From Eledone cirrhosa (taxonomy: Eukaryota): 64,000 nucleotides of DNA. How positions within the stretch are numbered: position 1 is the stretch's first letter; every line of letters starts with the position of its first letter. The stretch spans positions 29,450,001 to 29,514,000 of the forward strand of contig OZ024746.1 of NCBI GenBank assembly GCA_964016885.1. The letters are read 5' to 3'. This document shows positions 4,803 to 60,989 of this stretch, in pieces. The position numbers and the translations under genes are program-made. The notes under the pieces are model-generated. The model ran no database searches and was not told the origin of the DNA. It was given only the letters and a program-made list of their open reading frames with translations.

Positions 4803-5006
4803 GAAATGTGCTAAGGAACCTGATGGACCATAACGCACCAAAGTACTCAATACTTAGGCTAGTAGAGAGGGTAATAGGAACGAGTAGGACCCCGACGGCT
4901 GAGCTCAAGCCGTTTCGACGGCTAATTCTGGACTAAAATTTGATTTTAGTCCAGAATTAGCCGTCGAAACGGTTTGAGCTCAGCCGTCGGGGTCCTACTC
5001 GTTCCT
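4803..5006. mobile_element. Family A fold-back element carrying the 3' half of a hammerhead (GAAA-helix III-GTC)
   Basis: Head-to-head arms centred at ~4941. Further copies at 11837-12065, 12350-12399, 18077-18415, 37371-37578, 38402-38497, 46658-46787 and 47049-47242. Confidence 0.8.
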
Positions 5007-5062
5007 ATATATATATATATATATATATATATATATATATATATATATATATATATATATAT

Positions 5063-5323
5063 AAGATCAAAAGATGGTTAAATGGGTTCCATGTATTTTA
5101 TTATGCGCATTTCAAAAACAAATATCATCATGCAATAACATTTGTGTTTTCATCAGATAAAATAGGACATGATATGAAGGTTAAAAAACACTTGTGGATA
5201 GTGCAGTTTTAAATCAACATATTTTGATCTTATATATTATGTATACTCCAGTCCTACAAACTGTAGAGTGCTTCTTATCCGATATCTGCATTGCTTTATT
5301 GTACTACAATAAAACTCACCTCC
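5063..5323. mobile_element. Family C element between (TA)n tracts, internally inverted
   Basis: Homologous to 41943-42264 and 59015-60162. Confidence 0.8.
5095..5163 (-). ncRNA. Minimal type I hammerhead ribozyme (family C)
   Basis: attttat-CTGATGA-[aaacacaaatgttatt..gatatttgttttt]-GAAA-T-GCGC-A-TA-ataaaat. Confidence 0.8.
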
Positions 5324-8029
5324 TATATATATATATATATATATATATATATATATATATATATATATATATACTTATATATATATGTGTTCTGTATATA
5401 TGTATGTGTGTATGTGTATGTATTTATATTTTTGTTTATATATGATATAATTGATGTACCCTATCAAGGCTTGAAAAAAAAGTATCTAGTAAAGGAAATG
5501 AAGAAAATAAACACGGAGAATAAGCTGAGAATCGATAATTGACTCCATCTGGTTGGAAAGAAGCAATTATATTGAATATATTCGACACTTTAATGTTCTT
5601 AAATGAAGACATTGTTTCAACGTTGTTTACTGACGAGCGACAGTTATTGCTGAAACTACTGACTTAGCGTTGTTTAATTGCTTGTATGATATCGTTTTGC
5701 TAATAAGAAAATGACGAGAGTTACAGAAAGAAAAACGAGGACGATGCAATAAGCAATAAAGTACAATTATTAACCGATCGATTTTAGTTTTAAAACTAAT
5801 TATAGGTTGTTGTTTAACTATCTATGAATCTCGTTTCGCCACCACGTCACACGTGTTCAATCCTATTGCCGCCTATCTTTAGTGTCTTTTAGCCCAAGGT
5901 TAGCCTAAAAAATGCTTTCAGCGTGGTATTTCACAGATTGAGCTCAGTCCTGATTAAAATGATTACTGATGAACGACGGTTCAGCCGTTTACATGATATT
6001 GTATTATTCAAATAATATTTTAAATACTTGGCTATTATTTATAGCATATTAAGAGCCTCTATACTGGCATTTTCGTGATTGCAATGCTCTGTTATGTGGA
6101 GAGATAGCGTTCTTAGCTGCACGACATAAAGCAGAAGACTATAGTGGTGTTCCAATGATCCAGTCTGTTAAACAACTTAGTCATTGTCAGTCGATGAATA
6201 GGGAGAGGTTCTAATTCGGCCGATGTCAACTTACACTTTCATAATTACGGAGATGATAGAATACTTATCTAGAGAGGTGGCCTGTCAGAACCATTTGAAC
6301 ATCGGACGAAATACATTACGGTATTTGTTCCAGCTTCTTGCGTGCAAATCCCGCCCTAGCCCACTTGTGTGGTAGACTTAACTCGTCACTGAATTTAGCT
6401 CCACCACCTGGTACTGCGGGTGTAAGGTATGCTTTCTGTGGAGTTTACCCTGCTCTAAGGGCTCTGGTTTAAGGATATTTTGCTACCACCTGCCTCTGAT
6501 ACCCTGGACAAAGAGAAAAGTATGTACACTGGTAGTAAATGTTTAATTATATCTCAAGAAAGATATTTTCTGAATTAAAACATAATGCAGAAACAAAACA
6601 TTAAAGATGTCTTATTTCAAATTGAAATTCGAATCAGAGTTAATATGCTCAGTTTTATGTAAATTTATATTTTTACACACACACACATACACGCGCACAC
6701 ATGTGCACACGCACACAGACATAAATATATGCCACGTTACTAATTACCAATAGTTTTAACCGACTGTTTGATTCTCAGAGATCGAATTAATTACGGGGAA
6801 TATGTTTAGATAAAAACAAATGCCAAAAGTAAATCTATTGAATTAACCCAATGAAAAATAAAAAGAACTTGTCCAGAATTAACAATTATGCAGAAATACT
6901 TTTCATTTTTTAACTATTAATTAGAAAAAAAAAGACCCCTACACTATATGCACACGCACACACACACGCACACATATATATACATATAATACATATACAT
7001 ATATATATATATAAATAAATACACTATGTATGAATATGTATATACACACATATACACACACACATATATATATATATACACACATATACACATACATACA
7101 CACCACATGCACACACACACATATATATATATATTTACACTATATATGATATATATAAGAATATATATATATACACTATATATGAATATATATATGCACT
7201 ATATATGAATATATATATTATATATATATATATATACATATATACACTATATATAAATATATATATATATACTCATAGACTTACATACACACCACAGGCA
7301 CAGACATATACACAGACCTATAAGCACAAATATGCATACACATATCCTAATATTGACGTTAATAAAACAAGGGAAAATCAATTGTCCGTATCAAACTGAA
7401 AATATAATTTGCGATGACAATACTATTGATCACATTGATTGACAAAACATCTGCGTATGTTATCTGAGTGATTGGCTGATGAACGTAAGGACGGTACACT
7501 GCCGATATCGTCAAGAGAAAAAGAGAGAACGAGGAAGAATCGACTCCAGAACTGAGCTGATACTTTAAGAATGGCTTTTCCAGCGCGTCTCCCTTGCCGT
7601 CCTCCGGGGAAACGCCTTCTCCATTGTGTCCGCCGGGGCTGTGGGGAGGCCACCAATATGATTTACTGACTTGTCATTTTATCAGTCACATGTTCTAATG
7701 ATTCTCTCTCTCTCTATATATTTATATATACTCTAGAGTAAAGCATGTCCAGAGAATTATTTGATAATATATATACATCATCTCTACTCCCTATCAGCAT
7801 AATTAACCACACAAAAAATCAATTAGACCAGGCTATAAGAATAAAAGGCACCTATAAAGAAACAGTAAATAAATACGCCACAGCAGCGTCTTCGCGTCCA
7901 ACCGCTATAGAATATTTACCCAACATTTCAACAGCACGTGGAAATTAATTAAATATATGGTCAACCATACAGAATTAGGTAAAATTAAAGTTAGAAATGC
8001 TTATATACATACCAGGATTAAATCACTAA

Positions 8030-8107
8030 ATCCCGACCCATGGGTTTCGCTCACTTTTGAGATACCTTATTAAGGATGAATCTCGAGTTTAGAGCTCTTC
8101 AGAGGAC
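8030..8107 (-). ncRNA. Hammerhead ribozyme, inverted copy of family D
   Basis: Reverse complement of 8605-8682 with one helix I change (C to T, leaving a G-U pair). Confidence 0.85.
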
Positions 8108-58882: not shown

Positions 58883-59014
58883 TATTTGCCCGGAAATGTG
58901 CCGCGGAGGAAACGTTCTGGATGCAAACCCCATGGTCAATCGTGACCGAAGAGGGCTTTTACCCTATATATATATATATATATATATATATATATATATA
59001 TATATATATATATG

Positions 59015-60162
59015 TAGGTGGTGAGTTTTATTGTAGTACAATAAAGCAATGCAGATATCGGATAATAAGCACTCTACAGTTTGTAGGACTGGAGTATACA
59101 TAATATATAAGAACAAAAGATGGTTAAAAGTGTTCCATGTATTTTATTATGCGCATTTCAAAAACAAATATCATCATGCAATAATATTTGTGTTTTCATC
59201 AGATAAAACATGAAGACCTGATATGAAGGTTAAAAAACACTTGTGGACAGTTTTAAATCAACATATGAGAAGTAGTTTTAGATTGATGTGTGATATTGGG
59301 AAAAATATTTTATTTATTCTATAATACTTGTTAATCATTCTTCTCTTCTTCTTTTAATGTCTAACCCCTAATCTGTACCTTTTCTCACTCTTGCCTAACA
59401 TAGAATCAATTATTATATAATACAATACATTCTTACTCTATATCACCTTGTAAAAATCCTTCGTAAACATATACATTTTTTTGACGTTAGATTATTCATC
59501 CTCAATTCATTATTCTTTTCTCCCTTTCATCTAACTCATTCATCTCACAATATTTCCTTACTTAAATAACCTGTTGTTCCTTTTAATAATACATATCAAC
59601 ATCTTCTTAATATCGCACATATTATTAAACCCTTAAACATTATTCTCAATACATATTAACATTTTCTTTTTTCATCGCACATATTATCAAACCCCTCAAT
59701 ATACAAACCTTAACTTTACATTATTTTTCTCTTCGTTAATTTTCAAATTCTTTTAATTTATTCATTATCTTCCAACGGTTTTCAACCTCTCTATGTAAAA
59801 CAATATATCTTTCTCAGTTATAAAAGCTATCTCTCTCTATCTATCACCCATCTCTCCTCCTATCTCATCCTTCCTCATTATACTCCTCCCTCTCCACTTT
59901 TTACTCTCATCTCCTCTTTTTCATCCTTCCCCCCCCCCCCCCACTCTAAATAAAATATTTTTCCCAATATCACACATCAATCTAAAACTACTTCTCATAT
60001 GTTGATTTAAAACTGAACTATCCACAAGTGTTTTTTAACCTTCATATCATGTCTTCATGTTTTATCTGATGAAAACACAAATATTATTGCATGATGATAT
60101 TTGTTTTTGAAATGCGCATAATAAAATACATGGAACTCTTTTAACCATCTTTTGTTCTTATA
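59015..60162. mobile_element. Long family C element: inverted arms (59015-59314, 59948-60162) around a ~630-bp AT-rich spacer; hammerheads at 59142-59208 (-) and 60060-60126 (+)
   Basis: Arms are reverse complements and both ends lie in (TA)n. Confidence 0.85.
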
Positions 60163-60216
60163 TATTATATATATATATATATATATATATATATATATAT
60201 ATATATATATATATAT

Positions 60217-60989
60217 GAAAGACGTAAAATAAGAAAATTTCAAAAATTAAAAATCAACTTACTTACTAAAATTTTCACTCCAACTAATTAGTTTCTGTAA
60301 GGGGATAAATATAGTTACATAATATAACTATAGAGAATTCCTTACGTCTTTCATATAATTGTTCTGCATCCCCCTGCATAGAACCACAAAGGTACTAAGA
60401 CATAATATATATATTTGCTAGCATAGGTGAACATCTGTACACATATGTTGGTAAATGTACTAATTCTCTATATTTATCTCCAAATTATTTGTTGAGCAAA
60501 ACTTGCCAAAATTTACTGCTGATTCATGGTAGTAGTAGGCTCTTATCATAATACCACCCCGCTCCTAACTGATTAACCTCAGTGTCACGTGATTGATTCT
60601 TTAGAATCTGCTACTGTCCAGAGGCAGTGAATTTTTTCAGTGCTCCGGAATTTAGTCCTCGCTAGCTTTATTCCATCCACTGAATTATTATTATTTTTAT
60701 ATGGGTTCCTAGTGTCCGCGCATCGCCTGGGAACTTAGCTGAGAATAGACTCCCTGATGACGTAAGGAATTCTCTATAGTTATATTATGTAACTATATTT
60801 ATCCCCTTACAGAAACTAATTAGTTGGAGTGAAAATTTTAGTAAGTAAGTTGATTTTTAATTTTTGAAATTTTCTTATTTTACGTCTTTCATATAATTGT
60901 TCTGCATCCCCCTGCATAGAACCACAAAGGTACTAAGACATAACATAGGTGAACATCTGTACACATATGTTGGTAAATGTACTAATTCT
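60217..60989. mobile_element. Family I: pLTR/retrozyme-like partial tandem (~538-bp unit, +) preceded by an inverted segment
   Basis: 60343-60468 repeats at 60881-60989. 60217-60348 is the reverse complement of 60759-60890. Confidence 0.85.
60749..60830 (+). ncRNA. Type I hammerhead ribozyme (family I), GUU cleavage after 60825
   Basis: actcc-CTGATGA-c-gtaagg..atagtta/taactat..ccttac-a-GAAA-CTAATTAG-TT-ggagt; helix III region ACTAATTAGT is palindromic. Confidence 0.85.

What the first reader, a model, noticed from the sequence alone, without database searches (positions are those of the whole stretch)
5006..60217. Shared rule: asymmetric palindromes whose short arm ends at an internal TA and fuses to the (TA)n
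Seen in six families. The long arm extends further, to a fixed 3' end where several copies can be compared (A: CTTCGTT; C: CTCACCTCC). The short arm stops where the element itself reads TA/AT. A: GTTCCTA (5006, 18238, 37578, 46787, 47242). C: CTTATAT (5063, 41943, 60162). D: CTAGAGTAT (7731). H: GAAGTAATAT (27990). G: ATCGTAT (44298). I: CTTTCATAT (60217). Established: PLE insertions often carry an inverted 5' pLTR piece. Inference: target-primed reverse transcription from cut (TA)n, copy-back, then joining by TA microhomology. These mimic MITEs but would be retroelements.
Basis: partly seen in the sequence, partly recalled or inferred. Interest (0 to 1): 0.72.

Follow-up and report, generated by a model that had tools for sequence, protein, structure and literature searches.

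The report
Two-site primed Penelope palindromes in (TA)n
These lopsided mirror-image inserts are stumps of very common Penelope-type jumping genes, likely built when both cut ends of a TA repeat start copying the element's RNA at two fixed TA-bearing spots 80-114 bases apart; the shape is known, but the copies help show how it forms.

Summary
Families A, C and G are 3' ends of Penelope-like retrotransposons with Hydra-clade motifs (intact 717- and 800-aa ORFs for A and C); D and I are short tandem derivatives; H has no ORF found. Each family has two fixed 3' ends, tail-less S and tailed T, 80-114 nt apart (A: 81 of 83 TA-joined ends). Head-to-head inserts carry one of each (50 of 53 classifiable; 27 of 27 ORF-bearing). 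The element reads TA/AT at S and also at T (11 of 11 sites, combined p about 5e-5), and imperfect targets show 12-17 bp duplications. Copy-back fails as a general rule: the tail-less arm carries the whole ORF in 11 of 27 long inserts, and some arms do not overlap. Best reading: both staggered (TA)n ends prime reverse transcription, one at S and one at T. Inverted pLTR plus one-sided tail is published, and two start sites were shown in vitro; the long tails, strict S+T pairing, TA pairing at both starts and (TC)n stutter were not found in my searches. This scan reported twin-primed Penelope palindromes before on other genomes.

The parts
4803..5008 (.). Family A insert: tailed arm on - (4803-4937, tail end cut short against a LINE fragment) + tail-less S arm on + (4936-5008)
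5057..5325 (.). Family C insert: S arm on - (5057-5222), T arm on + (5218-5325) starting only 12 nt 5' of S; nearly no overlap
7728..9100 (.). Family D insert (short tandem unit about 690 bp with hammerhead-like core at 8610): S arm on - 7728-8127, extra inverted piece 8134-8249, direct unit with read-through pLTR and T end at about 9094
11836..12065 (.).
18078..18215 (+). Family A solo T arm between two (TA)n runs
18237..18415 (.). Family A palindrome, S arm - and T arm +; S arm reaches further 5' (-51 against -43)
27989..28388 (.). Family H palindrome, S arm -, T arm +, hammerhead-like core near 28189
37367..37579 (.). Family A palindrome, T arm -, S arm +
38402..38499 (+). Family A solo arm ending at a minor CAT/AT site about 9-14 nt before T
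41939..42265 (.). Family C palindrome, S arm -, T arm +, hammerhead-like cores at 42038 (-) and 42077 (+)
43864..44300 (.). Family G palindrome, T arm -, S arm +; 13-bp imperfect-TA word shared by both flanks
46659..46789 (.). Family A inversion with non-overlapping arms: tail-only T arm on - (starts at S+9), S arm on +
47045..47244 (.). Family A palindrome, T arm -, S arm +
59014..60165 (.). Family C insert: T arm on - (59014-59330), longer S arm on + carrying about 600 bp more 3' UTR
60212..60990 (.). Family I insert (short tandem unit about 540 bp): S arm on -, direct unit ending at T, followed by (TC)29 then (TA)n

Best explanation
These are insertions of endonuclease-bearing Penelope-like retrotransposons with Hydra-clade motifs and of their short derivatives, and each lopsided palindrome likely forms when both 3' ends of a staggered cut in (TA)n prime reverse transcription, one at the tail-less site S and one at the tailed site T. 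Shown: the elements, the two fixed ends, one of each per insert, TA/AT in the element at both ends, 12-17 bp target duplications, and either arm being the longer. Inferred: the GIY-YIG domain cuts both strands about 12-17 bp apart; each 3' end (ending in TA) pairs by 2-5 bases with the RNA at a site fixed by the protein; the two cDNAs, from one RNA or two RNAs of one source locus, stop at variable 5' points with family-specific pile-ups and are joined head to head. Overlapping arms give a palindrome whose one-sided overhang is the S-to-T tail; a T arm that stops inside the tail gives a plain inversion.
For: ORF linkage: A unit about 3.54 kb in tandem arrays with 717-aa ORF, C about 3.9 kb with 800-aa ORF, G linked to ORF remnants. 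Two ends: 38 S + 43 T of 83 TA-joined A ends; raw RAD reads of three runs of the same species label show loose (AT)n ends at S (2907, 2596, 2649 reads) and T (7398, 8050, 10149) and strand-changing joints. Pairing: 50 S+T, 2 S+S, 1 T+T, 5 with one end unreadable, of 58 (binomial p 3e-12); 13 of 13 A and 14 of 14 C ORF-bearing inserts with both ends in view. Tail-less arm bears the ORF in 5 of 13 and 6 of 14. Alternating TA run of 2-5 nt at 11 of 11 end sites read (Fisher p 5e-5). Duplications: 14 of 23 informative flank pairs against a shuffled mean of 2.8, maximum 5. Arms share private variants, also where the S arm is the longer (L127, L130, L140: 7, 12, 5). Family I has extra TC units at T in 17 of 21 distinct junctions where the element has one, as expected if RT starts and stutters there. 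In vitro, a Poseidon element cuts and extends both strands and starts at two sites that bound the tail (PMC11167929).
Against: PMC11167929 reports initiation at sites not homologous to the cut DNA, in a different clade. Strict one-S-one-T pairing is observed, not explained; the same paper saw no strand difference in start site. The TA test used the best run within about 6 nt of each junction, families C, G and H are related, G's sequence beyond T was not found and H's rests on 2 reads-through. Eight of 25 A and 8 of 17 G pairs have arms within 3 nt of each other on the ruler, some with unaligned loops, and do not discriminate. One RNA versus two is open: 1 of 14 block pairs and L010 have arms from different subfamily variants. 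No read or contig was seen to bridge the centre of the window's own G palindrome.
Confidence: 0.75

Rival explanations
1. Copy-back: one cDNA primed at T folds back on itself, is copied to an internal TA and joins the other target end by microhomology.
For: Arms are usually near-identical (mean 1.5 differences in 40 nt within, 4.5 between); T arm reaches further 5' in 10 of 50 pairs; TA at S.
Against: S arm reaches further 5' in 22 of 50 pairs, arms do not overlap in 5 of 50; S arm carries the ORF that the T arm lacks in 11 of 27 long inserts; one of 8 TAT/ATA runs is used in A; arms from different variants exist.
Confidence: 0.06
2. Endonuclease resolution: a self-primed or tandem double-stranded intermediate is cut by the element's TA-preferring endonuclease at S on one side and T on the other, then joined into (TA)n.
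For: Would give TA at both ends and one S plus one T; PMC8557442 suggests the tail results from EN-mediated resolution; PMC3846280 argues for self-priming on an antisense template.
Against: (TC)n stutter at the T end of family I points to RT initiation there; non-overlapping arms; in vitro start sites match tail ends.
Confidence: 0.13
3. MITEs or palindromes moved as units by a TA-targeting DNA transposase.
For: An identical 175-bp palindrome occurs at 6 of the 40 scored loci.
Against: The two ends are different sequences, centres vary, duplications are 12-17 bp rather than TA, and the same ends border full ORFs. 5' stops pile into about 25 positions, so with tens of thousands of inserts (extrapolated from 25 pairs in 864 kb) identical centres are expected.
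Confidence: 0.03
4. Assembly or library fold-back artefacts.
For: No long read was available; the window's own centres were not bridged.
Against: Arms differ by point changes, ends are asymmetric and fixed, flanks carry duplications, and strand-changing joints recur at the same places in three raw-read runs (for example 3777/3830 in 54, 60 and 74 reads, from 1-2 start positions each).
Confidence: 0.03

Closest known systems
Hydra-clade C-terminal EN+ Penelope-like elements (Craig et al. 2021, PMC8557442; includes Hydra-1_Obim)
   Same: Single ORF RT + C-terminal GIY-YIG, DKT, CxCX5C linker, no CCHH, CxxC and CxH around E and N, (TA)n targets, hammerhead-like motif near the 3' end, inverted 5'-truncated copy.
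   Different: Units of 3.5 and 3.9 kb (published: generally under 3 kb); RWR/RWT instead of RWK; tails of 80-114 nt (30-40 bp is given for PLEs in general); A's hammerhead core deviates; short tandem derivatives D and I.
EN+ PLE insertions with inverted pLTR and one-sided tail (Adineta Pen2a_Av, PMC3846280; fig. 2 legend of PMC8557442)
   Same: Head-to-head inverted pLTR, tail at one end only, target duplication.
   Different: Tail 31 bp and TSD 8-10 bp there; explained there by self-priming or EN resolution; no count of S+T pairing or of TA at the start sites in the passages I read.
Poseidon element PAc of Anolis in vitro (PMC11167929)
   Same: Two RT start sites bound the tail; both target strands cut and extended; AT-rich target.
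   Different: Starts lie 111-118 nt inside the ORF at sites not homologous to the cut DNA; here both lie upstream of the first ATG (T about 90 nt before it in A) and both read TA/AT.
L1 twin priming (recalled, not from a call)
   Same: Second target strand primes internally, giving a 5' inversion with a target duplication.
   Different: In L1 the internal site is variable and arms do not overlap; here both sites are fixed and arms usually overlap.

Membership tests
EN+ Penelope-like elements | Single ORF with RT and C-terminal GIY-YIG-type endonuclease | tested here: met
   A 717 aa, C 800 aa with FDI..YY, YRDDG and IY..Y[IF]G.T motifs; by motif reading, since Pfam and PDB searches gave no hit for P0001; 2063 homologues at E<=1e-20, one carrying PF01541. 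No ORF found for H, D, I.
EN+ Penelope-like elements | Tandem or partial-tandem copies forming pLTRs; inverted 5'-truncated copy | tested here: met
   Four A units in tandem in L125-L126; pLTR at both ends of ORFs; D and I tandem units.
EN+ Penelope-like elements | Optional tail at one end (30-40 bp) | tested here: met
   Present at exactly one end in 50 of 53 pairs but 80-114 nt long.
Hydra clade | DKT, CxCX5C linker, CCHH absent, CxxC and CxH flanking E and N | tested here: met
   A: SDKT, CNCPDRSIC, CNLCSEE, CKH; C: DKT, CNCRIKNKC, CNLCLNE, CLH; G remnant: CNCRDRSKC, CDLCAEE, CRH.
Hydra clade | RWK motif | tested here: inconclusive
   RWR in A, RWT/RWI in C.
Hydra clade | Canonical hammerhead ribozyme near the 3' end | tested here: inconclusive
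   Pattern scan finds CTGATGA/CTGAAGA..GAAA cores in C, G, D, H by eye; A deviates, I unclear; Rfam gave 0 hits at gathering score.
Hydra clade | (TA)n insertion preference | tested here: met
   83 of 86 A ends abut a simple repeat run; imperfect (TA)n duplicated on both sides.
Hydra clade | Length generally under 3 kb | tested here: not met
   A 3.54 kb, C about 3.9 kb; a tendency in the paper, due here to a long 3' UTR.
Hydra clade | Placement within the clade in an RT/EN tree | not tested
   No tree with published Hydra, Neptune and Nematis proteins was built.
MITE (Tc1/mariner type) | Identical terminal inverted repeats, uniform size, TA duplication | tested here: not met
   Ends differ (S against T), sizes run from about 85 bp to several kb, duplications 12-17 bp.

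The most novel reading that the evidence does not exclude
Hydra-clade PLEs insert by an obligate two-site twin priming in which an asymmetric RT-endonuclease dimer places the two TA-ending target strands on two UA-bearing RNA sites 80-114 nt apart, and RT stutters at initiation like telomerase, so that the elements lengthen the (TA)n and (TC)n runs that they then reuse as targets.
Probability: 0.3. Interest if true: 0.7.

Novelty: new member of a known kind. Interest (0 to 1): 0.45.

Why it matters
How Penelope-like elements make their inverted repeats and one-sided tail is named as open in PMC3846280 and PMC8557442. Here tens of thousands of copies (extrapolated) in several families give a clear genomic rule, one S and one T per insert with TA at both and a 12-17 bp stagger, that rules out copy-back, extends the two-start-site result from one Poseidon element in vitro to another clade, and disagrees with its no-homology conclusion. 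Intact ORFs make it directly testable. It also warns repeat annotators that these MITE look-alikes are retroelement stumps.

Tried and rejected
Rfam: 0 hits. Pfam: no family for two ORF fragments or for P0001; PDB sequence search: 0. Empty-site reconstruction to test whether (TA)n flanks are lengthened at insertion: 0 usable sites among 30 and 88 pairs; the 7 hits were nested or self matches. Pile-up of 5' ends at the predicted hammerhead cut: only 3 of 79 A tailed arms at -18 to -16, 2 of 27 H near -49; not convincing. Pile-up of tailed arms near S: modest (7 of 41 G at -22 to -5; three A starts at -3 are alignment artefacts of a divergent subfamily). A-to-G barcodes shared by both arms: no excess in 27 long inserts (3 of 140 private shared changes). 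Conserved hairpin after S: z between -0.2 and -1.4, not supported. Centre of the window's G palindrome not bridged by a listed read or contig. No RNA holder listed. Literature: searches listed no paper on twin priming or TA pairing at both PLE start sites; the three papers were seen as listings only, and subscription journals are not covered.
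Full report
Setting. The window is G000:C6:29450001-29514000 of a 3.0-Gb animal genome rich in (TA)n. All 12 coordinates of the finding show the stated motif at a (TA)n junction. I call the tail-less end S and the tailed end T.

What the families are. Following family A upstream in neighbouring DNA led to reverse transcriptase and endonuclease frames. Twenty such stretches show a unit of about 3.54 kb, four times in tandem in L125-L126, with the finding's A sequence as the pLTR before and after the ORF; the protein is 717 aa. 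Family C borders an 800-aa ORF in a unit of about 3.9 kb and G borders ORF remnants. D (about 690 bp) and I (about 540 bp) are short tandem units with a pLTR and no ORF seen; no ORF was found for H. A and C have DKT, a CxCX5C linker, no CCHH, and CxxC and CxH motifs, which PMC8557442 (section 11 read) gives for the (TA)n-targeting Hydra clade; its supplement lists Hydra-1_Obim among members (part 2 of 59 read). RWK is RWR or RWT here, the units exceed 3 kb, and no tree was built. Hammerhead-like cores occur in C, G, D and H; Rfam found none.

Two fixed ends. In 864 kb of stretches not selected for these elements (364 kb around and including the window, 100 kb from each of five other contigs), 86 A arms gave 38 ends at S, 43 at T, 2 elsewhere and 3 without a repeat run, though the region has 20 TA dinucleotides; G gave 23 S, 22 T, 6 other, most of the latter T or S ends displaced by indels; C 9 S, 8 T, 2 near S, 3 without a run. 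S-to-T distances are 80 (A), 94 (C), 90 (G), 99 (H), 112 (D) and 114 nt (I). Raw RAD reads from three runs with the same species label, laid on a read-through A copy, show loose (AT)n ends at S and T as the best-supported (AT)n ends, along with the same two ends of a variant subfamily (562 weaker rows not shown; RAD sampling distorts the ratio). So the short arm does not stop at whichever TA it meets; in C a few TA positions within about 13 nt are used, and rare third sites exist (38499; L123; L296).

One of each. Of 58 head-to-head pairs of A, C, G and H, 50 were S+T, 2 S+S (apparently one event duplicated), 1 T+T and 5 had one unreadable end (p 3e-12 for 50 of 53 against independent ends). 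Among ORF-bearing inserts, 13 of 19 A stretches and 14 of 20 C stretches had both ends in view, and all 27 were S+T.

Copy-back fails. A fold-back copy of a T-primed cDNA cannot hold sequence that the T arm lacks. Yet the S arm reaches further 5' in 22 of 50 short pairs, the T arm in 10, and 18 are within 3 nt, several of these with unaligned loops that do not discriminate. In 5 of 50 the T arm starts inside the tail, so the arms do not overlap; 46659-46789 in the window is one. The S arm carries the whole ORF in 5 of 13 A and 6 of 14 C long inserts. Arms mostly come from the same source: 1.5 against 4.5 differences per 40 nt (14 pairs), with private shared variants even where S is the longer arm; in 1 of 14 block pairs and in L010 the arms carry different subfamily variants.

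TA at both ends, and target duplications. Read-through copies show that the element reads an alternating TA run of 2-5 nt at S in all six families and at T in the five where the continuation was found. Against random junctions in the same sequences the combined p is about 5e-5, and 6e-5 for A, C, D and I alone; the best run near each junction was taken, which favours the result somewhat. Where both flanks are imperfect (TA)n, 14 of 23 pairs share a word across the insert, against 2.8 (maximum 5) in 200 shuffles; for A, 7 of 8 are flush with the junctions at 12, 13, 14, 14, 14, 16 and 30 nt (two of the 23 were internal read-throughs and count as misses). The target therefore existed beforehand and was cut with a stagger. 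In family I, 17 of 21 distinct T junctions carry 2-40 extra TC units between the element's ATTCTC and the (TA)n (after dropping one duplicate and one read-through from 23 rows), which suggests RT stutter at initiation, though later slippage could add units.

Mechanism. Shown: elements, two ends, pairing, TA at both, duplications, either arm longer. Inferred: a staggered double cut gives two TA-ending 3' ends; each primes at one protein-set site with 2-5 bases of pairing; the two cDNAs stop at variable points and join head to head. PMC11167929 (parts 1-2 of 4 read) showed for an Anolis Poseidon element that both strands are cut and extended and that two RT start sites bound the tail, but at sites not homologous to the target. 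PMC3846280 (passages and Discussion) and PMC8557442 (passages, sections 11 and 15) describe the inverted pLTR and a 30-40 bp one-sided tail and leave the mechanism open between self-priming and endonuclease resolution. The latter remains the main rival because it also predicts TA at both ends.

Genomic reality. Strand-changing joints recur in three raw-read runs for A and arm-to-arm joints occur in reads and contigs for G, but no listed record bridged the centre of the window's own G palindrome and no long reads were on offer.

Verdict. A known insertion architecture in new, active members of a known clade. The strict S+T pairing, long tails, TA at both starts and TC stutter were not found in the literature searches. 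Earlier notes of this scan reached twin priming for Penelope palindromes in other genomes; my reading was set down before I saw them, and their A-to-G barcode lead gave nothing in my 27 inserts.

Noticed in passing
window 60987-61076; loci L229-L256: Family I tailed ends carry (TC)n of 2-40 units between element and (TA)n in 17 of 21 junctions; one internal copy (L256) has (CT)6 in place of the normal continuation.
   Followed up: partly
L020, L022, L029, L141 flanks: Imperfect target words recur several times on both sides of the insert, as if the duplicated target had been recopied more than once.
   Followed up: no
tails of A, C, G, H (alignment A1): A shared GAGT[AG]CTT motif lies 24-34 nt after S, with ACTC about 7-11 nt after S; possible protein-binding mark. 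Folding gave no significant hairpin.
   Followed up: partly
window 1285-4803: Non-LTR retrotransposon fragment: 600-codon frame and AP endonuclease frames (Exo_endo_phos), cut off at 4803 against the family A insert.
   Followed up: partly
window 5006-5063, 18216-18239, 46595-47306, 60166-60216: Inserts nest in the (TA)n runs that flank earlier inserts, building chains of different families.
   Followed up: no
family A arms: 5' ends pile up 41-61 nt before S, inside the hammerhead-like region; three tailed arms begin at -18 to -16, next to the predicted ribozyme cut (-16).
   Followed up: partly
window 797-911: Further short palindrome (94% arm identity) with a hammerhead-like core at 723 on the minus strand; family not assigned.
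   Followed up: no
L206:1595-1640: Family H continues past T into a short palindrome and non-coding sequence rather than an ORF; the autonomous partner of H is unknown.
   Followed up: partly
window 52068-52727: 78-bp tandem array, 8.5 copies, 97% alike.
   Followed up: no
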